Shown here in pieces: positions 7,495 to 60,900 of a stretch of 64,000 nucleotides of DNA. The stretch's first letter is position 1; every line of letters starts with the position of its first letter. The stretch is from the human T2T-CHM13v2.0 reference genome, Homo sapiens. A program made the translations under genes and the position numbers. The DNA lies in NCBI RefSeq assembly GCF_009914755.1, contig NC_060927.1; one strand, 5' to 3'. The notes below the pieces were generated by a model that had not been told where the DNA came from, made no database searches, and was given only the letters and a program-made list of their open reading frames with translations.

Positions 7495-8641
7495 TTTTAT
7501 TTTATTTACATTCTGGGATACATGTGCACGATGTGTAGGTTTGTTACATAGGTAAACGTGTGTAATGGTGGTTTGCTGCACCTATCAACCCATCACCTAG
7601 GTATTAAGCTCAGCATGCATTAGCTATTTTTCCTAATGCTCTCCCTCCCCCGACCCCTTCCAACAGGCCCCAGTGTGTGTTGTTCCCTTCCCTGTGTCCA
7701 TGTGTTCACATTGCTCAGCTCCCACTTATAAGTGAGAATAGGCAGTGTTTCGTTTTCTGTTCCTGCATTAGTTTGCTGAGGTTAATGGCTTCCAGTTCCA
7801 TCCATGTCCCTGCAAATAACATGATCTCATTCCTTTTCATGGCTGCATAGTATTCCATGGTATATATGTACCACATTTTCTTTATTCAGTCTATCATTGA
7901 TGGACATTTGGGTTGGTTCCATGTCTTTGCTATTGTGGATAGTACTGCAATGAACATATGCATGCACCTTTATAATAGAATGATTTATATTCCTTTGGGT
8001 ATATACCCAGTAATGGGATTGCTGGGTCAAATGGTATTTGTTGTTCTAGGTCTTTGAGGAATTGCCACACTGTCTTCCACAATGGTTGAACTAATTTAGA
8101 TTCCCACCAACAATGTAAAAGCATTCCTTTTTCTGCCCAGCCTCACCAGCATCTGTTGTTTCTTGACATTTTAATACCTGCCATTCTGACTGGCATGAGA
8201 TGGTATCTCACTGTGGTTTTGATTTGCATTTCTCTAATGATCAGTGATGTTGAGCTCTTTTTCATGTGTGTTGGCTGCATAAATGTCTTCTTTTGAGAAG
8301 TGTCTGTTCATGTCTTTTGACCACTTGTTAGTGGGGTTGTTTGTTTGTTTCTTGTAAACTTGTTTAAGTTCCTTGCATATTCTGGATATTAGACCTTTGT
8401 CAGATGGATAGATTGCAAAAATTTTCTCCCATTCTGTAGGTTGTCTGTTTGCTCTGATGATAGTTTCTTTTGCTGTGCAAAAGCTCTTTAGTCTAATTAG
8501 ATCCTATCTGTCAATTTTTGCTTTTGTTGCAATTGCTTTAGACATTTTCATCATGAAATCTTTGCCTGTGCCTGTGTCCTGAAGGGTATTGCCTAGATTT
8601 TCTTCTAGAGTTTTTACAGTTCTGGGTTTTACGTTTAAATC
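7495..8641 (-). mobile_element. 5'-truncated L1PA (approx. L1PA8-10) 3' end
   Basis: T-rich tail and L1PA 3' UTR (tacatgtgcacgatgtgtaggtttgttacataggtaaacg). ORF2 C-terminal remnants in ORF 7930-8124 ([17 protein letters not shown]). Confidence 0.92.
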
Positions 8642-26198: not shown

Positions 26199-27729
26199 AC
26201 CTACAGACTAGCAGCAGTAAGTCCTTACCTATAAATAATCAGGATAATCAGGATAATTTAATCCATTTACTTTAAATGTAAATAAATTACGGAATCAAAA
26301 GACATAGAATGTCTAAATTGATTTTTAAAAACAAGATTCAACTATATGCGACTATAGAAGACTCACTTTAGCTTAAAGGACACATATAGGCTGAAAGTCA
26401 ATGAAGAGAAAAAGATATTCTATGCAAATTGTAAGCAAAAAAGAATAGGGGTGACTATACTTATATCAGACAAAAGACACTTTAAGTCAAAAACTGTCAT
26501 AAGAGACAAAGAAGGTCATTGCATAATAATAAAAGGGTCATTTCATCAAGAAGGTAAAACAACTATAAATATATATATATATGCACCCAACATCAGAACA
26601 TTTAAATATATTAAGGAAATATAACCAAAACTGAAGGTAGAAACAGACAGCAATACAATAATAGTAGGGGACTTCAGTACTCATTTTAAATAATGACTAG
26701 GTCATCTAGACAGAAAAACAATCAAGAAACAGTAGATCTGAATAACAATATAGACCAAGTGGGCCTAACAGACATATACAAAACATTCCATTCAAAAGAA
26801 GTAGAATACACACACTTTACAAGTGCATATGAAACATTCTCTAGGACAGATTATATCTTGGGCCACCAAACAGTCTTGAAAATTTAAGAAGATTGAAATC
26901 ATATCAAGTATCTTTTCCAACCACAATAGTATGAAATTAGAAATCAATAATGGAGGAAAACTGGAAAATTCACAAATATGTGGAAATTACTCCTGAACAA
27001 CCAATTGATCAAGAAAGAAATCAAAAGGGAAATTTAAAAATATATTGAAACAAATAAAAATGGAAACATAGCATACAAAAATGTAGGGGACATGGCAAAA
27101 GCAGTTTTAAAAGGGAAGTTTATAATAAGAAACACCTATATTAAGGAAAAAGAAAGATATCAAATAAACAACTTAACCTCATACCTCAAGTAACTAAAAA
27201 AATAAGAACGAACAAACCCAAAAGTTAGCAGAAGGAAGGAAATAATAGAAAGCAAAGCAGAGACAAATAAAATTAAGTTTAGAAAAACAACCGAAAGAAC
27301 AAAAAAACTAAGAGTTTGCTTTTTGAAAAGATAAACAAAATTGACAAACCTTTAGCTAGACTAATAAAAAATGAGAGAAGCCTCAAATAAATAAAATTAT
27401 AAATGAAAGATGTGACATGACAACTGACACCACAGAAATACAAAGGATTATAAAAGATTATTACTATGAGCCATTTTACAAGCCAAAAAATTGGATAACC
27501 TAAAAGAAATGGATAAATTTTTAGAAACACGTAACCTACCAAGACTAAAATATAAAGAAATAGAAAATCTAAACAGACCACTGAGTAAGGAAATTAAATC
27601 AGTAATCAAAACTTCCCCACAAAGAAAAGCCCAGAATCTGCTTGCTTCAAAGGTGAATTCTACCAAACGTTTAAAGAATTAATGCCAATCCTTCTCAAAC
27701 TCTTCCAAAAAATTGAAGAGGAGGGAACA

Positions 27730-28119
27730 TGCTATGGTCTGAATGCATCCCTCAATATTCACGTGTTGGAGACTTAATCCACAATGCAAGAGTACTGTGA
27801 GGTGGGACATTTTGAGAGATGTTTAAGTCATGAAGGTTCTGCCCTTATGAATGGATTAACGCCATTATAAAAGGGCTTGACAGAGGGAGTTTGGCCCTTT
27901 ATGCCTTTGTGCCTTTGGCTTTGTGAGGATACAGCCTTCCTCCTCTCTGGAAGATACAGCATTCAAGGTGCCATAATGGAGCAGAGAGCTGCCCTCAGCA
28001 GAGGCAGGCACTTTGAATTGGACTTCTCAGCCTCCAGAAATGTAAGAAATAAATTTCTGTTCTTTACAAACTACCCATTCTCAGGTATGTTGTTATAGCA
28101 GCATGAACAAACGAAAACA
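27730..28119 (+). mobile_element. MSTC/MSTD-type MaLR solo LTR
   Basis: tgctatggtctgaatg...ttgttatagcagca...aaaca. 5-bp TSD GAACA/GAATA at 27725-27729 and 28120-28124 within the host L1 ORF2. Confidence 0.85.
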
Positions 28120-28750
28120 GAATACTTCCAATCTCATTTACAAGGCCAGCATTACCCTGATACCAAAGCCAACAAGAATACTACGAGAAAAAAAAATTAC
28201 AGTCCAATATCCCTGATGAATATAGACGCAAAAATCCTCAACAAAAGACTAGCAAACAGAACTCAACAACATATCAAAAGAGTCATACTTCATGATCTAG
28301 TGGAATTTATTATTGGGATGAAGAATTGTTCAACATATGCAAATCAATAATGGGCTATGCCACATTAATAAAATAAAAGATAAAAATCACAGGATCATCC
28401 CAATAGATGCAGAAAAAGCACTTATCAAAATTTATCCTTTCATGATAAAGACTCTCGACAAATTGGGCATAAGATGAATGTGCCTCAACATAATCAAGGT
28501 TATACATGATAAGCCCACAGCTAACTTAATACTCAATGGAGAGAAGCTGAAAACTTTTCCTCTAAGATCAGGGACACGACAAGGATGCCCACTTTTGCCA
28601 CTTCTTTTCTATATAGTACCTGGCGCCTTCTTTTCACTTTAGTACCTTGCTACAATTAGGCAAGAAAAAAAACAATAAAATCATCCGAATCTGGAAGGAG
28701 TAAAATTGCATCTGTTTGCAGATGACATGATCTTAAATAGAGAAAACTCT

Positions 28751-31520
28751 GAGGGGAGGGACCAAGATGGCTGACTGGAAGCAGCTGCCGTCAGCGGCAC
28801 CAGGAAGAACGAAAACGGCAAGTGAATCCTGCACCTCCAGCTGAGGTATCCAGGTTCTCTCATCTGGGCTGACTAGGCGGTTGGTGCAACCCATGGAGAG
28901 TGAGAAAAAGCAGGGTGGAGTGACGGCCCACTGGGAGCTGCACAGAACAAGTGGAGCTCTCACCCCCAGACAAGGGAGGCAGTGAGTAATTGTGCTACCC
29001 TGCTCGGGAAACCACGCTTTTTCTATGAACCTGTACAACCTGCAAATCAGGAGATTCCCTCATGAGCCCATGCCACCAGAGCCGTGGGGCCCAAGCAAAG
29101 AGCTGTGCAGACACTCAGCAGCCACTCCGGTTGAAGCCAGTGGCAGCAGGCTGGAGACTGCCTAAGATGACCAAGTTCCCAAGGGGAGGGGCAGCTGCCA
29201 CAGCAAACCATAGCAGCCCTATAGAAGACGGGCCTGACTGTTAAAAGAGAAACAAACAAACAAAAAGCAACAACGACAACGACGTCAATAAAAAAGCCCC
29301 TACAAAAACCCCATCCAAAGGTCAGCAGCCTCAAAGATCAAGCAAAGGTAGATAAGCTTACAAAGATGAGAAATAATCAACACAAAAATGCTAAAAACTC
29401 AAAAACCCAGAGTGCCTATTCTCCTCTAAGTGATTGCAATACATCTCCAGCAAGAACACAGAACTGAACTGAGGCTGAGATGGATGAACTGACAGAAGTA
29501 GGCTTCAGAAGTTGAAGAATAATGAACTTCACTGCGCTAAAGGAGTATGTTCTAACCCAATGCAAAGAAGCTAAGAACCCTGATAAAACATCACAGGAGC
29601 TGTGAATGAGAATAACCGGTTTAGAGAGGAACATAAATGACTTGATAGAGCTGAAAAACACAACATGAGAACTTCACAATGCAATCACAAGTATCAATAG
29701 CTGAAGAGACCACGCAGAAGAAAGAATCTCAGAGCTTAAAGACTGTCTTGCTGAAATAAGACAGACAGACGAGATTAGAGAAAAAAGAATGAAAAGGAAG
29801 GAACAAAAGCTCTGAGAACTATGGGATTATATACAAAGACCAAACTTATGACTGATTGGGGTACCTGAAAGAGATGGTGAGAATGGAACCAAGTTGGAAA
29901 ACATACTTCAGGATATCATCCAGGAGAACTTCCCCAGTCTAGAAAGACAGGCCAACATTTAAATTCAGGAAACCCAGAGAACCCCAGTAAAATACTCCAT
30001 GAGAAGATCAACCCCAAGACACAGAATCATCAGATTCTCCAAGGTCAAAATGAAGGAAAAATGTTAAGGGCAGCCAGAGAGAAAGGTCAAGTCACTTAAA
30101 AAGGGAAGCCCAGCAGACTGACAGTGGACCTCTCAGTGGAAACTTTACAAGCCAGAAGAGATTGGGGGCCAATATTCAGGAAATTGAAACAGGACCCCTT
30201 CCTCACACCTTATACAAAAATCAGCTCAAGATGGATTAAAGACTTAAATGTAAAACCCACAACCATAAAAACCCTAGAAGAAAATCTAAGCAATACCATT
30301 CAGGATATAGGCATGACAAAACTTCAAAAGCAATTGCAACAAAAGCAAAAATTGACAAATAGGATCTAATTAAACTAAAGAGCTTCTACACAGCAAAAGA
30401 AACTATCATCAGAGCAAACAGACAACCTAAAGAATGGGAGAAAATTTTTGCAATCTATCCATATGGCAAAGGTCTAATATCCACAATCCACAAGGAACTT
30501 AAACAAATTTATAAGAATAAAACAAACAACCCCATTAAAAAGTGGGCAGAAGACATGAACAGACACTTCTCAAAAGAAGACACATATGTGGCCAACAAAC
30601 ATATGAAAAAAAGCTCAACATCACTTATCATTAGAGAAATGCAAATCAAAACCACAATGAGATACTATCTCACGCCAGTCAAATCCCAATTATTAAAAAA
30701 ATCAAGAAACAACAGATGCTGGTGAGGCTGTAAAGAAAGAGGAATGCTTTTACATTGTTGGTGGGAATGTAAATTAGTTCAACCATTGTGGAGGACAGTG
30801 TGGTGATTCCTCAAAGACCTAGAACCAGAAATACCATTTGACCCAGCTATCCTTCCACTGGTTATATACCCAAAGGAATATAAATCATTCTATTATAAAT
30901 ATATACGCATGTGTATGTTCATTGCAGCACTATTCGCAATAGCAAAGACATGGAATCAACCCAAATGCCCATCAGTGATAGATTGGATAAAGAAAATGTG
31001 ATACATATACACCATGGAATATTATGCAGCCATAAAAAGGAATAAGATCATGTCCTTTGCAGGGACATGGATGGAGCTGGAAGCCATTATCCTCAGCAAA
31101 CTAATGCAGGAACAGAAAACCAAACACTGCATGTTCTCACTTATAAGTTGGCGCTGAACAATGAGAACATATGGACACAGGGAAGGGAAAAACACCCACT
31201 GGGGCCTGTGGTAGGTGGTGGGGGTTGGGAGAACATCAGGAAAAATAGCTAATGTGTGCTGGGCTTTAATACCTAGGTGATGGATTGATAGGGCAGCCAG
31301 TCAAATACCCTTTTATTGCCATCGGGCAGACAGCATCTATTATGTACTTCTCTACCATCCTCACCCTCATACCACTCACCAGCCTAATTGCAAATAAACT
31401 ACTTAGGTGATAGATTGATAGGTGTAGCAAACTACCATGGCACATGTTTACCTATGAAACAAACCTGTACATCCTGCACATGTACCCTGAAACTTAAAAT
31501 AAAAATTAAACAGAAAAAAA
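28751..31520 (+). mobile_element. L1PA (approx. L1PA7-10) with both ends intact but internally deleted (2.77 kb)
   Basis: 5' gaggggagggaccaagatggc (YY1 site 28763-28771), ORF1 from about 29367, a jump to late ORF2 near 30180, then 3' UTR and A-tail. TSD AGAAAACTCT/GGAAAACCCT at 28741-28750 and 31521-31530; the host L1 resumes in register. Confidence 0.9.
31291..31404 (+). pseudogene. NUMT: 3' end of mitochondrial cytochrome b (MT-CYB-derived)
   Basis: In the vertebrate mitochondrial code it reads [38 protein letters not shown]. That is about 26/38 identical to the human CYTB C-terminus as I recall it ([38 protein letters not shown]). C/A-rich, G-poor composition typical of the mtDNA L-strand. 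Confidence 0.92.
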
Positions 31521-32647
31521 GGAAAACCCTAAAGACTCCAGTAAAAAAGTGTTCAAACTAATAAACAAATCCAGTAATGTTGCAGGATAGAAAGTTAACT
31601 TGCAAAAAATCAGTAGCATCTCTATATACTAACAACAAACTATCTGAAAAAGAAATTAGGAAAACAATCCCATTTACAATAGCTTCAAGACAATAAATAT
31701 AACAGGAATAAATTTAATCAAGAAGGCAAAAGGCTTGTACACTGAAAACTATAAAACATTGCTAAAAGCAACTGAAGACACAAATAAATGGAAAGATATC
31801 CCATGTTCACGAATTTGAAAAATTAATATTGCTTAAATCTCCATACTACCCAAAGCATTCTACAGATGCAAATCAATCTCTATGAAAATTCCGATGTCAT
31901 TTTTCACAGAAATAGAAAAAAAAATCCTAAAACTCATATGAAACCAAAAAAGACCCTGAATAGCTAAAGCAATCTTCAGCAAAAAATGAATCTGGAAGCA
32001 TCATGCTACTTGATTTCAAAATATACTACAAAGCTATAGTAATCAAAACAGTAAGGTGCTGGCATAAAAACAAACATACAGATCAATGGAACTGAATAGA
32101 AATTCCAAATATAAATCCATGCACTTGTAGTCAATTTTTCTTTGCAAAATTGCCGGGAACATGCAATAGGGGAAAGAGAATATCTTTAATAAATAATGTT
32201 GGAAAAACTGGATATCCATATGCAAAAAAGTAAAATTGGACCCTTATCTCACACTACATGTAAAAACCAACTAAAATAGATTAAAGACTTAAATACAAGA
32301 GCTGGAACTGCAAAACTGCCCAAAGAAAACATAAGGAAAAAGCTTTTTGACATTGATCTGGCCAATGATTTTTTTTTAAATAAAACCCCAAAACGGGTAG
32401 CAAAGGAAAAATAGGCAAATGGGATTGCATCAAACTAAAAAGCTTTTGCACAGCAAAGGAAACATAGACGTTGAACACCAAAACAGATGTTACAATTTTT
32501 CTTCAACCATCACATACGTGATTTAAGGACCACAAGGAGAAAGATAGCTTGTTTTATTTAGTTTATATGCAGTTTATTATTAATTACTTTGATTTTTTTT
32601 CCATTACACTTTATTTCCTTTCTGCTTGGAGAGCTTCCTTTGCCATT

Positions 32648-32780
32648 CTTTTAGACAGGGTCTCCCTCTGTCACCTAGGCCGGAGTGCAGTAGCATGAGC
32701 ATAGATAGCTCAGTGTAATGACGCACCTCAGCCTCCTCTGAGTAGCTGGGATTACAAGCATAAGCTACAGCACTCATCTC
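32648..32780 (-). mobile_element. Degenerate Alu monomer/AluJ fragment
   Basis: agacagggtctccctctgtcacctaggccggagtgcagt...cctcagcctcc...agtagctgggattaca. Confidence 0.75.
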
Positions 32781-32790
32781 CCTTATAGCT

Positions 32791-33245
32791 ATTCTCTAAG
32801 GGGAGATATATAGATACATATATATCTATATATGTATATAGAGATGTATATATGTATACATATACATATACATGTATATGTATACGTATACATATACATG
32901 TATATGTATATATACATATACATGTATATGTATACGTATACATATACATGTATATGTATATATACATATATATCTATATATGTATATATAATATATAGAT
33001 GTATATGTATATATACATATATAGATGTATATGTATATATACATATATAGATGTATATGTATATATACATATATAGATAGATACATATATCTCTATATAG
33101 AGAGAGATATATAGAGAGAGATACATATAGATATATCTCTATATATAGAGAGAGAGATATAGATACATAGATCTCTATATATAGAGATATATATAGAGAG
33201 ATACATATAGATATATATGTATCTATATATCTCCCCTTAGAGAAT
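32791..33245. repeat. AT-rich (TA/TATG/GA) compound repeat bounded by perfect 41-bp inverted repeats
   Basis: 32791-32831 is the exact reverse complement of 33205-33245. Confidence 0.92.
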
Positions 33246-34319
33246 TTTCTAAGGGTATTATTTTCTCTGTGTTGTTCAGATTAAGTCCTATTGATCTGTC
33301 TTCAAGTTCAGTGATTCTATCTTCTGTCATTTCCACTCTACCGTTGAGTCCTTCCAGTGAGGTTTTCCACTTCTTAAATGAACTTGTAATCACTCATTCA
33401 ATCAATTTTATGATAATTGCTTTACAGCTTTTGTCAGATAATTCTATTATCTGATTCATGTCAGCTGTCTTTTTCTCATCAAAATTGTGATTTTTCTTGT
33501 ATGACAGGTTTCTTGGTATAATGGGTTATTTTCTTGGTATGACAGGTGATTTTCTATTGTATCTTGGACATTTTAGATATATGTTTAAGAGGTGGGGTTT
33601 TTTTCCTATTTACATTCTATGTATATCTTTTACCTAATAGGAAGTCATCTGTTTTGGTTTAGCATAGTAGTTCAGTCTGACCAAAGGAGTGGAAGAGTCT
33701 CCTCCCCGGGTCACTGATATCACTGCTAGGGGCAGAGAGGCTCTACCAGCAGTTTGGGGCTGGTGATAGATTGAGCTACCCTGGCTCTGCTGATGAAGCT
33801 GCTGTAGGCATCCTGCGCTCACCACTTCTGGCAGATGTAAGACAGGAAAATGGGTTGGCTTACTGAGGGCTTGGCTGGCAACATTTCTGGGCAGACTGGG
33901 CCATTACTAAATCCCAGTTGGGCTTCTCCTGTTCCACTCCTTTGGCCAGAGAAAGCAGGCATTCCCTTCCCCTTTCTTCCTTCCTTCCACCTTTCCTCTC
34001 TCACTTTCTCCTTCTTCCTTTCCCTCTTTCATTCCTTCCCTCCACCAATTCTTGCTGGCAATTCAGGGCTGCAGGGCTCTCCAGTGCCCAGTAAGATATA
34101 TATGGGAGATGGGAAGAAAAGTCAGGAAACTCACCATGATGCCGTTCTTCAAGTCCTCAGGTCCCTAGCCAATCCACTTTCTTCTTTACTACCTGTCAAA
34201 GTCCTTTTATGATTGCCTGTCGTACTATTTTCAGGTACTCAATTGTATTTGGAGGGAAGGAACAAGTATTAGTGACTTTATGACACCCTGTTGCAGAAAT
34301 GGAAGCCACTAAATACTTT

Positions 34320-57921: not shown

Positions 57922-60900
57922 CATTTTATTTTAGGTTCCAGGATACATGTGCAGAACGTGCAGGTTTGTTGCATAGGTTAATGTGTGCCACGGTGGTTCG
58001 CTGCACCTATCAATCCAACACCTAGGTATTAAGCCCAGTGTGCATTAGCTATTTTTCCTGATGCTCTCCCTTCCCCTGTGACCCCCCTGCCCCTACTGAC
58101 TGGCCCTGGTGTGTGTTGTTCCTCTCCCTGTGTCCATGTATTCCCATTGTTAGCTCCCACTTATGAGTGAGTATATGTGGTGTTTGGTTTTCTGTTCCTG
58201 TGTTAGTTTGCTGAGGATGATGGCTTCCAGCTTCATCCATGTCCCTGCAAAGGACATGATTTCATTCCTTTTTATGGCTGCATAGTATTCCATGGTGTAT
58301 ATATACCACATTTTCTTTATCCAGTCTATTATTGACAGGCATTTGGGTTGATTCCATGTCTTTGCTATTATGAATAGTACTGCAATGAGCATACATGTGC
58401 ATGTATCTTTATAGCAGAACGATTTATATTCCTTTGGGTATATACCCAGTAATGGGATTACTGGGTCAAACAGTATTTCTGGTTCTAGATCTTTGAGGAA
58501 TCACCACTGTCTCCCACAGTGGTTGAACTAATTTACATTCCCATCAACACTGTAAAAGCATTCCTATTTATCCACAGCCTCACCAGCATCTGTTGTTTCT
58601 TGACTTTTTAATAATCGCCATTCTAACCGGCATGAGATGGTAGTTCATTGTGGTTTTGATTTGCATTTCTCTAATGATCAGTGATGTTGAGCTTTGCTTA
58701 GCTTTTCTTCATGTGTTTGTTGGCCACATAAATGTCTTCTTTTGAGAAGTGTCTGTTCATGTCCTTTGCCCACTTTTTGATGGGGTTGTTTTTCTTCTTG
58801 TAAATTTGTTTAAGTTCCTTGTAGATTCTGGATATTAGACCTTTGTAAAAGGGGTGGATTGCAAAAGTTTTCTCCCATTCTGTAGGTTGTCTGTTCACTC
58901 TGATGATAGTTTCTTTTTCTGTGCAGAAGCTCTTCAGTTTAATTAGATCCCATTTGTCAATTTTTGCTTTGTTGCAATTGTTTTTGATGATGTCATCATA
59001 AAATCTTTGTCCATGCCTATTTCCTGAATGGTACCGCCTAGATTTTCTTCTAGGGTTTTTATGGTTTGGGGTTTTACATTTAAGTCTTTAATCCACCTTA
59101 AGTTAATTTTTGTTAAAGTATAAGAAAGTGGTCCTGTTTCAGTTTTCTGCATATGGCCTATTTTCCCAGCACCATTTATTAAATAAGGAATCTTTTCCCC
59201 ATTGCTTGTTTTTGTCAGGTTTGTTGAAAATCAGATGGTTGTAGATGTGTGGTATTATTTCTGAGATCTCTATTCTGTTCCATTGGTCTATGTGTCTGTT
59301 TTGGTACTTGTACCATGCTGTATTGGTTACCATAGCCTTGTAGTATAGTTTGAAGTCAAGCGGCATAATGCCTCCAGCTTTGTTCTTTTTGCTTAGGATT
59401 GTCTTGGCTACATAGGCATGGGCTCTTTTATGGTTCCAGATGAATTTTAAAGTATTTTTTTCTAATTCTGTGAAGAATGTCAATGGTAGTTTGATGGGAA
59501 TAGCACTGAATCTCTAAATTACTTTGGGCAGCATGGCCATTTTCACAATATTAATTCTTCCTATTAACGAGGATGAAATATTTTTCCATTTGTTTGTGTC
59601 TTCTCTTATTTCCTTGAGCAGTGGATTGTAGTTCTCCTTGAAGAGGTCCTTCACATCCCTTGTTAGCTGTTTCCTAGGTATTTTATTCTCTTTGTAGCAA
59701 TTGCGAATGGAAGTTCATTCATGGCTCTCTGCTTGTCTATTGTTGGTGTATAGGAATGCTTGTGATTTTGCACATTGATTTTGTATCCTGAGACTTTGCT
59801 GAAGTTGCTTATCACCTTAAGGAGCTTTTGAGCTGAGACGATGGGGTTTTCTAGATATAGGATCATGTCATCTGCAAATAGAGACAATTTTACTTCCTCA
59901 TTTCCTATTTGAATAATTTCTCTCTCTTACCTGATTGCCCTGGTCAGAACTTCCAATACTATGTTGAATAGGAGTGGTGAAAGAGGGTATCCTTGTGTTG
60001 TGCCAGTTTTCAAAGGGAATGCTTCCAGCTTTTGCCGATTCATGATATTGGCTGTGGGTTTATCATAAATAGCTCTTATTATTTTGAGATATGTTCCACC
60101 AATACGTAGTTTATTGAGACTTTTTAACATGAAGGGATGTTGAATTTTATCAAAGGCCTTTTCTGCATCTATTGAGATAATCACGTGGTTTTTGTCATTG
60201 GTTCTGTTTATGTGATGAATTATGTTTATTGATTTGCGTATGTTGAACCAGACTTGCATCCCAGGGATGAAGCCAACTTGATCATGGCAGCTAAGCTTTT
60301 TGATGTGCTGCTGGATTCAGTTTGCCAGTATATTATTATGGATTTTCGCATCGATTTTCATCAGGGGTATTGGCCTGAATTTTTTGTTGTTGTTGTGTCT
60401 CTGCCAGATTTTGGTATCAGGATGATGCTGGCCTCATAAAATGAGTTAGGGAGAAGTCCTTCCTTTTCAATTGTTTGGAAATATTTCAGAGGGAATCTAC
60501 CAGCTCCTCTTTGTACCTCTGGTAGAATTTGGCTGTGAATCCATCTGCTCCTGGGCTTTTTTTGGTTGGCGGGCTATTTATTACTGCCTCAATTTCAGAA
60601 CTTGTTATTGGTCTATTCAAGGATTTGACTTCTTCCTGGTTTAGTCTTGGGAAGGTGTACGTGTCCAGCAATTTCTCCATTTCACCTAGATTTTCTAGTT
60701 TATTTGCATAGAGGTGTTTGTACTCTTCTCTGATGGTAGTTTGTATTTCTGTGGGGTCAGTGGTGATATCTCCTTTATCATTTTTTATTATGTCTATTTG
60801 ATTCTTCTCTTTTTCCTTCTTTATTAGTCTAGCTAGTGGTCCATTTTATTTATTTATTTATTTTTTTCCAAAAAACCAGCCCCTGGATTCATGATTTTTT

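What the first reader, a model, noticed from the sequence alone, without database searches (positions are those of the whole stretch)
31270..31422. Mitochondrial CYTB fragment captured inside an L1 3' UTR with a 23-bp flanking duplication: possible L1 RT template switch onto mitochondrial mRNA
Seen: 31291-31404 is an indel-free, 38-codon cytochrome b C-terminus. It lies between two copies of L1 sequence, TACCTAGGTGATGGATTGATAGG (31270-31292) and TACTTAGGTGATAGATTGATAGG (31400-31422). Sibling L1s in this window (about 7575-7610 and 58001-58035) show the uninterrupted single-copy site. The insert is in the L1's sense, ends only a few codons before the CYTB 3' end, and overlaps L1 at both junctions (GG on the left, TAC(C/T)TA on the right). 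Established: NUMTs usually integrate from DNA by end joining and typically lack long target duplications; L1 ORF2p can template-switch between RNAs. Inference: RT left the L1 RNA, copied about 110 nt of CYTB mRNA and returned about 20 nt downstream, giving an RNA-derived NUMT. The alternative is capture at a staggered DSB after the L1 inserted. Divergence from the human protein suggests an old primate mtDNA fossil. The NUMT may already be catalogued; the junction architecture is the point of interest.
Basis: partly seen in the sequence, partly recalled or inferred. Interest (0 to 1): 0.85.

Follow-up and report, generated by a model that had tools for sequence, protein, structure and literature searches.

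The report
Mitochondrial CYTB fragment inside an L1
A real, roughly 110-base fossil of the mitochondrial cytochrome b gene sits inside an old L1 retrotransposon, flanked by an unusually long 17-23-base duplication, and it most likely entered by DNA break repair after the L1 was already in place.

Summary
Bases 31291-31404 read in the mitochondrial code as 38 open codons matching cytochrome b residues 340-377 of 380 (E 2e-10). They interrupt the 3' UTR of a sense-oriented L1 between two copies of a 23-mer that differ at 2 of 23 positions. That 23-mer is single and uninterrupted in the two sibling L1s in the window and in 29 of 29 relatives fetched from the genome.

Refinements:
- Long NUMTs elsewhere in the genome show the mitochondrial sequence at both junctions.
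- The left overlap is AGG (3 nt).
- The right-hand TACTTA is probably mitochondrial, because the L1 has TACCTA. The certain L1 duplication is therefore 17 nt with a 2-nt overlap.
- Longer similarity at the junctions is no better than chance.
- The chimera is unique. None of 18 other CYTB-3' loci has L1 flanks, and no other locus spans either junction.

The reverse-transcriptase template-switch idea is not excluded, but the limited dating leans against it:
- The insert's terminal branch is 0.036, against 0.075-0.12 for the L1 flanks.
- The repeat copies differ less than expected.
- Both copies share a private A that the nearest L1 relatives lack.

My best reading is later capture at a break in a resident L1, at about 55%. 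Orthologous primate loci, which I could not reach, would decide it.

The parts
28742..28753 (+). Left target-site duplication of the host L1 (GAAAACTCTGAG)
   Evidence: Read. In 9 of 11 older L1 paralogues the two window flanks abut and overlap by about 6-11 nt at GAAAACCCTAAAG.
28754..31521 (+). Host L1. It has a 5' UTR start, ORF1, an internal deletion of about 3.3 kb by my estimate, the ORF2 C-terminal part, the 3' UTR and an A-rich tail. It is nested in an older L1.
   Evidence: Relatives in the genome are 88-91% identical over 30900-31292.
30170..30182 (+). Internal deletion junction of the host L1. ORF1 ...CCAATATTCA is joined to ORF2 ...CCATATGCAG/AAAATTG.
   Evidence: Compared with ORF1-bearing relatives L051-L055 and ORF2-bearing relative L015.
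31270..31292 (+). Left copy of the 23-mer (L1 3' UTR). Its last 3 nt, AGG, are also mitochondrial.
31290..31292 (+). Left junction microhomology AGG
   Evidence: The L1 has ...GATAGG|TG. NUMT proxies have ...GGAGG|GCAGCC.
31293..31399 (+). Unambiguous CYTB-derived insert (107 nt); codons run 31291-31404
   Evidence: There are 19 genomic matches, and the 18 others lie in mitochondrial gene-order context.
31400..31405 (+). Right junction overlap TACTTA. It is identical to mtDNA and matches the L1 (TACCTA) at 5 of 6; the certain overlap is TA at 31404-31405.
31406..31422 (+). Right copy of the certain 17-nt L1 duplication. It pairs with 31276-31292, with one mismatch at 31412 versus 31282.
31423..31521 (+). 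Remainder of the L1 3' UTR and A-rich tail
31522..31534 (+). Right target-site duplication of the host L1 (GAAAACCCTAAAG)

Best explanation
A short piece of mitochondrial DNA covering the last ~110 nt of CYTB was captured in the 3' UTR of an L1 that was already resident in the chromosome. Capture happened during repair of a chromosomal break. Either a staggered break was filled in on both sides of the filler, or a repair or replication polymerase switched templates by microhomology: onto the mitochondrial fragment at AGG, and back 17-19 nt behind its leaving point at TA/TAC-TA. Either route duplicates 17-23 nt of L1. The result is an ordinary DNA-derived NUMT with an unusually long target duplication. 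Its position in a sense-oriented L1 is coincidence.

Shown: the anatomy, the uniqueness of the chimera and the short in-register microhomologies.

Inferred: the timing (later than the L1) and the DNA nature of the template.
For: (1) Relative decay.
- The insert's ML terminal branch among 19 CYTB NUMTs is 0.036, about 4 changes in 116 nt. That is an upper bound on nuclear decay, because it also contains mitochondrial-lineage change.
- The L1 flanks have terminal branches of 0.085 (merged), 0.075 (left) and 0.119 (right).
- The binomial P that the insert holds 4 or fewer of the changes is 0.046, 0.098 and 0.015 respectively.
- Together with the repeat-pair mismatch, P is 0.013-0.032.

(2) Only 1 of 116 insert bases is private among the 19 NUMTs (31391 C, Glu to Ala). 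All 38 codons are open, while 8 of 18 other NUMTs carry a stop in this span.

(3) The repeat copies differ at 1 of 17 (or 2 of 23). The host L1's own TSD differs at 2 of 12 plus an indel.

(4) Both repeat copies carry A (31284 and 31414) where 29 of 29 nearest L1 relatives do not (consensus G).
- Genome-wide, the A form has 47 exact 23-mers against 694 for the G form.
- Of 20 A-form loci fetched out of the 47, 10 aligned over at least 250 nt. These are farther from this L1 than the G-form relatives (mean 84.3%, against 89.5% for n=29).
- So A looks like a private change that predates the duplication.

(5) Precedent.
- 17 of 71 primate NUMT integrations have target duplications, and 53 of 152 junctions have microhomology of at least 2 nt (PMC2567098, passages).
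- Captured-DNA insertions without poly(A) show TSDs of 4-21 nt (PMC2671141, passages).
- Metazoan NUMTs are held to be DNA-mediated (PMC1925129, passage).

(6) The insert has no poly(A). I read no L1 endonuclease-type site at either end of the duplication; that reading comes and uses the motif as I recall it.
Against: - The 17-23-nt duplication exceeds the 1-11-nt range seen in 71 NUMT integrations (PMC2567098).
- The fragment is in the L1's sense. It also ends 8-14 nt from the CYTB transcript's 3' end, which a random mtDNA fragment would do only about 1-3% of the time by my estimate. An RNA template would explain that more naturally.
- The dating loses significance if L1 decay is taken as half the nearest-neighbour distance (4.8%: P 0.28-0.35).
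- The stricter 'private base' measure does not separate insert from L1 (0.86% against 2.3%).
- Relatives were selected by similarity, the sequences are short, and the L1 terminal branch includes source-element differences.
Confidence: 0.55

Rival explanations
1. During target-primed reverse transcription of this L1, ORF2p copied the L1 3' UTR back to about 31406. It then switched to CYTB mRNA about 10 nt from its 3' end and copied about 110 nt. It switched back to the L1 RNA 17-19 nt downstream of where it had left, and carried on. L1 and NUMT would then have arrived together, and the NUMT would be RNA-derived.
For: - The insert lies inside the L1's own TSD-bounded unit and is in the L1's sense.
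- It lies entirely within one mature transcript and starts 8-14 nt from that transcript's 3' end.
- Both junctions have short microhomologies.
- The same L1 carries a homeology-joined internal deletion, CCAATATTCA / CCATATGCA, which could be another template jump.
- L1 template switching to other RNAs is established, and 83% of the 28S/L1 chimeras are in sense (PMC13174262, section 11).
- Double jumps have been proposed for a fungal LINE (PMC2104539, search listing only).
Against: - Dating leans towards a younger insert and a younger duplication.
- The shared private A must then have been in the source RNA, yet 0 of 29 nearest relatives have it.
- There is no poly(A) between CYTB and the L1, so the acceptor would have to be a trimmed or internally engaged RNA.
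- No mitochondrial partner appears in the L1 chimera catalogue: 'mitochondrial' occurs 0 times in the main text, and the terms MT-CYB, mitochondri, MTCYB, ERC2 and numt occur 0 times in the 4 held supplementary files.
- Known chimeras have the partner 5' of the L1, not inside it.
- Mitochondrial mRNA is normally shielded from L1 particles.
Confidence: 0.15
2. A later but still RNA-templated event. A break or nick in the resident L1 was repaired by reverse transcription of a 3'-trimmed CYTB mRNA fragment, by ORF2p acting in trans without its endonuclease or by another RT-competent polymerase. Priming was by microhomology, and the 17-19-nt stagger became the duplication.
For: - It fits the younger-insert dating.
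- It fits the closeness to the transcript's 3' end.
- The duplication length is typical of L1-type staggered breaks; the host L1's own TSD is 12-13 nt.
Against: - There is no poly(A).
- I saw no endonuclease-like motif at the duplication boundaries (my reading; the motif is recalled).
- Endonuclease-independent L1 insertions usually lack TSDs (recalled).
- No case of a retro-copied mammalian mitochondrial mRNA turned up in my literature searches.
Confidence: 0.12
3. The insert was copied from a pre-existing nuclear NUMT or its transcript, not from the organelle, by template switching or gene-conversion-like repair.
For: The closest relative is a nuclear NUMT, L002 on contig 2, with 8 of 116 differences. 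Nuclear templates avoid the need for organelle nucleic acid in the nucleus.
Against: - No extant NUMT is a convincing donor. The window shares only 1 base exclusively with L002 (and L045), and it lacks L002's two in-frame stops.
- The window and L002 join at the base of the tree with separate terminal branches of about 0.036 each.
Confidence: 0.08
4. The NUMT entered the 3' UTR of a progenitor L1 at another locus, and that chimeric L1 then retrotransposed here.
For: It would explain co-location, the sense orientation of transcription and the intact L1 TSD unit.
Against: - No second locus spans either junction. Of 12 matches to the left junction probe and 3 to the right, only the window itself spans the junction.
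- None of the 18 other CYTB-3' loci has L1 flanks.
- Dating suggests the insert is younger than the L1 insertion, not older.
Confidence: 0.05

Closest known systems
NUMT integration at double-strand breaks by end joining with target sequence duplication (Hazkani-Covo & Covo 2008, PMC2567098; passages read)
   Same: Mitochondrial filler, short microhomology at the fusion points, duplication of flanking chromosomal bases, no poly(A).
   Different: Reported duplications were 1-11 nt (17 of 71 events); here the duplication is 17-23 nt. In that study, 7 of 8 events with microhomology on both sides had deletions; here there is a duplication.
Repair-mediated duplication by DNA capture at breaks (Pace et al. 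2009, PMC2671141; passages read)
   Same: Captured DNA without a poly(A) tail can carry TSDs of 4-21 nt plus microhomology or filler.
   Different: Those donors were chromosomal; here the donor is mitochondrial.
Chimeric L1 retrocopies made by template switching or RNA ligation: U6/L1, and tRNA, 28S, 7SL, Y and 7SK with L1 (Law & Burns 2026, PMC13174262; outline and sections 9 and 11 read)
   Same: A foreign RNA segment in the L1's sense, inside one TSD-bounded unit.
   Different: In those chimeras the partner lies 5' of a truncated L1 after a single switch. This case needs two switches, with L1 on both sides. No mitochondrial partner is listed. The dating here leans against simultaneous arrival.
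Tripartite chimeric pseudogene in Magnaporthe attributed to double template jumps of a LINE RT (PMC2104539; search listing and start of abstract only)
   Same: It invokes two successive template jumps in one reverse transcription.
   Different: Fungal element; three different RNAs joined head to tail; no return to the original template.
Microhomology-mediated template switching in replication or repair (FoSTeS/MMBIR; recalled, and cited within PMC2567098)
   Same: A templated insertion bounded by 2-3-nt microhomologies, with duplication caused by re-entry behind the leaving point.
   Different: Templates are usually nearby chromosomal DNA, not organelle DNA.

Membership tests
NUMT (nuclear mitochondrial DNA segment) | Sequence homologous to the mitochondrial genome | tested here: met
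   38 codons match cytochrome b residues 340-377 (E 2.2e-10). The DNA is 75-93% identical to 18 other genomic loci. In 15 of these the sequence continues downstream as mitochondrial sequence. Mammalian-mode ARAGORN calls mt tRNA-Thr beside CYTB in 9 of 18 loci, and also calls tRNA-Pro and tRNA-Glu in the gene order I recall for vertebrates.
NUMT (nuclear mitochondrial DNA segment) | Embedded in nuclear chromosomal sequence | tested here: met
   Flanked on both sides by L1 3' UTR, on contig 3 of the assembly.
NUMT (nuclear mitochondrial DNA segment) | Not part of an amplified nuclear repeat | tested here: met
   Only the window spans either junction. 0 of 29 L1 relatives carry the insert.
L1 chimeric retrocopy (template switch during TPRT) | Partner and L1 arrive in the same event (same presence/absence pattern across species) | not testable with these tools
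   No primate genomes are held. The indirect dating leans against it.
L1 chimeric retrocopy (template switch during TPRT) | Whole chimera bounded by one TSD with an A-rich tail | tested here: met
   The TSD at 28742-28753 / 31522-31534 encloses both the L1 and the insert. This is also true of any later insertion into the L1.
L1 chimeric retrocopy (template switch during TPRT) | Partner joined at or near its RNA 3' end, in the L1's sense | tested here: inconclusive
   Sense orientation: yes. The join is 8-14 nt short of the CYTB 3' end and carries no poly(A).
L1 chimeric retrocopy (template switch during TPRT) | Partner lies 5' of a 5'-truncated L1 (the usual anatomy) | tested here: not met
   The L1 continues upstream of the insert to its own 5' UTR start at 28754.
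Trans-mobilised processed retrocopy (TPRT of the mitochondrial mRNA itself) | Poly(A) tail at the 3' end and an endonuclease-type target site | tested here: not met
   The insert ends ...AATAAAC/TACTTA and runs directly into the L1. I read no A-run and no TT/AAAA-like site at the duplication boundary (the motif is recalled).
Trans-mobilised processed retrocopy (TPRT of the mitochondrial mRNA itself) | Target-site duplication of about 7-20 nt | tested here: met
   17-23-nt duplication.

The most novel reading that the evidence does not exclude
The insert is a cDNA of mitochondrial CYTB mRNA, made by L1 ORF2p through two template switches (L1 RNA to CYTB mRNA and back) in the very event that inserted this L1. 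It would be the first documented RNA-derived NUMT in a mammal, and the first L1 chimera both with an internal foreign segment and with a mitochondrial partner.
Probability: 0.15. Interest if true: 0.8.

Novelty: new member of a known kind. Interest (0 to 1): 0.3.

Why it matters
Animal NUMTs are taken to be DNA-derived. One clean RNA-derived case would show that mitochondrial transcripts can reach the L1 machinery in the germ line, and that ORF2p can leave and re-enter its own template.

As the evidence stands, the locus is mainly a well-resolved example of a NUMT with an exceptionally long target duplication. It extends the known range of overhangs or template re-entry distances at natural breaks.

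It is also a convenient test locus. A single presence/absence series across primates would settle RNA co-integration against later capture.

Tried and rejected
(1) Extended homeology at the junctions. I thought the L1 segment TGGATTGATAGGTGCAGC resembled CYTB TGAATTGGAGGGCAGC, and that TACCTAGGTGA resembled TACTTAAATGA. Local alignment scores at the true junctions, set against 20,000 random L1/NUMT position pairs, gave p = 0.22-0.87 for three NUMT proxies. I dropped the idea; only the in-register 2-3-nt overlaps count.

(2) The 'private base' count as a decay measure. The insert has 1 of 116 and the L1 flanks 2.3% against 18 random relatives. This has no discriminating power.

(3) Pfam on the 38-mer gave 0 families. 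The peptide is too short, so I used the PDB sequence search instead.

(4) ARAGORN in default mode found no tRNA in L002-L005. The mammalian mitochondrial mode in a script did.

(5) Rfam over 28000-33000 found nothing.

(6) Is the A variant of the 23-mer a subfamily marker? 20 of the 47 A-form loci were fetched, and they are not closer to this L1.

(7) NUMT catalogue check. Whether this NUMT is already catalogued is therefore unknown.

(9) Placing the fragment on a primate CYTB tree and naming the L1 subfamily. No primate mitogenomes and no repeat library are held. My guess of an L1PA8-L1PA13-like age rests on recall only.
Full report
**What is there**

Reading 29800-33300 and the repeat finder confirm a 23-nt direct repeat. 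One copy is at 31270-31292 (TACCTAGGTGATGGATTGATAGG). The other is at 31400-31422, with 2 mismatches and a spacing of 130.

With up to 3 mismatches the 23-mer occurs 4 times in the window, against 0 in 100 shuffles. The two other copies, at 7581-7603(-) and 58006-58028(-), lie in sibling L1 3' ends that read straight through the site.

Bases 31291-31404, translated in the vertebrate mitochondrial code, give [38 protein letters not shown] with no stop. The frame closes at once on either side.

A sequence search of the PDB matched 21 distinct sequences at E<=10, and all are cytochrome b. The best has E 2.2e-10 and aligns to residues 340-377 of 380. I count 26 of 38 identities to the best chain, 5xte_J, which I recall to be human; the table names no organisms. 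Pfam found nothing for so short a peptide.

**Context in the genome**

The window's assembly (24 contigs, no mitochondrial contig) holds 19 matches to the 107-nt core, at 75-100% identity. I looked at all 18 others: L002-L010, and L041-L049 fetched and aligned.
- All 18 continue upstream as CYTB.
- 15 continue downstream as mitochondrial sequence.
- 3 are cut short by other insertions. One of these, L042, is interrupted by an Alu.
- None has L1 3' UTR flanks.

In mammalian mitochondrial mode, ARAGORN calls mt tRNA-Thr immediately after the CYTB end in 9 of 18 loci. It also calls tRNA-Pro on the opposite strand beyond it, and tRNA-Glu about 1.1 kb upstream, which is the gene order I recall for vertebrates.

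Probes across the left and right junctions found 12 and 3 places respectively. Only the window spans a junction.

The chimera is therefore unique, and the element did not amplify after acquiring the insert. One caveat applies: the genome tool scores only its best candidates.

**Junction anatomy**

The long NUMTs supply the mitochondrial sequence beyond the insert...GGAGG|GCAGCCAGTC on the left and ...AAACTACTTA|AATGAA... on the right.
- On the left, L1 (...GATAGG|TG) and mtDNA overlap by AGG (31290-31292).
- On the right, the second 'repeat copy' starts TACTTA. That is exactly the mitochondrial sequence in 14 of 15 NUMTs with data. The L1 has TACCTA in the left copy, in both window siblings and in the consensus of the 29 relatives, one of which also reads TACTTA.

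The economical reading is that 31400-31405 is mitochondrial. The certain L1 duplication is then 17 nt (31276-31292 and 31406-31422, with 1 mismatch), and the certain overlap is TA.

I suspected longer homeology at both junctions, but it is no better than chance (p 0.22-0.87 against 20,000 random pairings).

The last shared base, 31405, is 8 nt from tRNA-Thr in L002.

**The host L1**

The element begins at about 28754 with an L1 5' UTR start and ends in an A-rich tail at about 31521. It is bounded by GAAAACTCTGAG (28742-28753) and GAAAACCCTAAAG (31522-31534).

In 9 of 11 paralogues of the surrounding older L1, the two window flanks abut and overlap by about 6-11 nt exactly there. This is therefore an ordinary target-primed insertion.

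The element lacks about 3.3 kb (my estimate), between ORF1 (...CCAATATTCA) and ORF2 (...CCATATGCAG|AAAATTG), and the two are joined at homeologous 9-10-mers.

Its 3' part is 88-91% identical to the best 40 scored of 7,664 candidate relatives. Against the majority of 29 relatives it differs at 25 of 390 positions (6.4%) left of the insert and 14 of 115 (12.2%) right of it. The relatives themselves average 7.8%.

**Timing, the crux**

No primate genomes are available here, so I compared decay.
- ML terminal branches are 0.036 for the insert, in a tree of all 19 NUMTs over 116 nt. The window L1 gives 0.085 when merged, 0.075 on the left and 0.119 on the right. The median for the other L1 copies in the merged tree is 0.084.
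- The insert's branch also contains mitochondrial-lineage change, so it is an upper bound on nuclear decay.
- Conditional binomial tests give P = 0.046, 0.098 and 0.015. Adding the repeat-pair mismatch gives P = 0.013-0.032.
- If L1 decay is instead taken as half the nearest-neighbour distance (4.8%), nothing is significant (P 0.28-0.35).
- A stricter private-base count does not discriminate either.

A second hint comes from a shared base. Both repeat copies carry A (31284, 31414) where none of the 29 nearest relatives does (consensus G).
- Genome-wide there are 47 exact A-form 23-mers against 694 G-form.
- Of the 20 A-form loci I fetched out of 47, the 10 with at least 250 nt aligned are farther from this L1 than the G-form relatives (mean 84.3%, against 89.5% for n=29).
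- The A therefore looks like a private change that existed before the duplication. That is easy to explain if the L1 had already sat in the genome for a while. Under co-integration it requires a private variant in the source RNA.

A third hint is in the insert itself. Of the insert's few deviations from its relatives, only one is private and non-synonymous at a conserved residue (31391, Glu to Ala). The rest are shared with other NUMTs.

All three hints point the same way, and none is strong.

**Weighing the mechanisms**

For an RNA template:
- The insert is in the L1's sense, which is worth a factor of two.
- It lies inside one mature transcript.
- It ends 8-14 nt from that transcript's 3' end. 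By my estimate that is a 1-3% coincidence for a random mtDNA fragment.
- The L1 shows another possible template jump, its internal deletion.

Against co-integration by ORF2p:
- The dating hints above.
- The absence of poly(A).
- The need for two switches.
- The lack of any mitochondrial partner in the recent L1 chimera catalogue. 'Mitochondrial' occurs 0 times in its main text, and my terms occur 0 times in its 4 held supplementary files. That pipeline looks only at sequence 5' of L1 fragments (section 11).
- The general view that metazoan NUMTs are DNA-mediated (PMC1925129).

For DNA-level capture:
- NUMT integrations commonly show microhomology. 24% show target duplications, though only of 1-11 nt (PMC2567098).
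- Captured DNA without poly(A) can carry TSDs up to 21 nt (PMC2671141).
- The human genome holds well over a thousand NUMTs (PMC1925129). If about a sixth of the genome is L1 (recalled), a hundred or so sense-oriented NUMTs in L1s are expected by chance. One with a rare long duplication is then not surprising.

My estimates:

| Explanation | Probability |
|---|---|
| Later DNA-level capture or template switch | about 0.55 |
| ORF2p double switch at L1 insertion | about 0.15 |
| Later RNA-templated repair | about 0.12 |
| Copy of a nuclear NUMT | about 0.08 |
| Chimeric progenitor L1 | about 0.05 |
| Other | the remainder |

**Verdict**

The NUMT is old: 26 of 38 residues match the best PDB chain, and its closest relatives are other old NUMTs at 83-93%.

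The striking interpretation is possible but not favoured. The finding is a good, cheap test case, but on present evidence it is an ordinary NUMT with an unusually long target duplication.

I could not check whether it is already catalogued (one search was inconclusive, and paper reading closed).

Noticed in passing
window 30170-30182 (host L1): The host L1 keeps its 5' end but lacks about 3.3 kb (my estimate) between the ORF1 end and the ORF2 C-terminal third. The two parts are joined at homeologous 9-10-mers, CCAATATTCA and CCATATGCA. Three of four relatives that reach this ORF2 point (L030, L038, L016) lose L1 homology within a few bases of it, which may mark a recurrent truncation or jump site.
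   Followed up: partly
L042 (G000 contig 11, about 87,757,050-87,757,780): Another CYTB NUMT is interrupted by an Alu at ...CTACTTAAG|GCCAGGCAC.... That is within a few bases of the CYTB position where the window insert joins the L1. The A/T-rich CYTB end (TTAAAT) may be a favoured nick site.
   Followed up: no
window 32795-33250: A long, imperfect (TATA/CATA/GAGA)-type simple-repeat block is bracketed by an inverted repeat (ctattctctaagggga ... tccccttagagaat).
   Followed up: no
L002-L010, L041-L049: The 18 other CYTB-3' NUMTs fall into sequence groups that look like successive time slices of the ancestral mitochondrial lineage (peptides EHPF..., then EYPF..., then KYPF...; the best PDB chain has SYPF). 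The window insert belongs to the youngest of these groups.
   Followed up: partly
window 27720-28110: A block of about 400 nt of another repeat interrupts the older L1 upstream of the host L1. I did not identify it.
   Followed up: no
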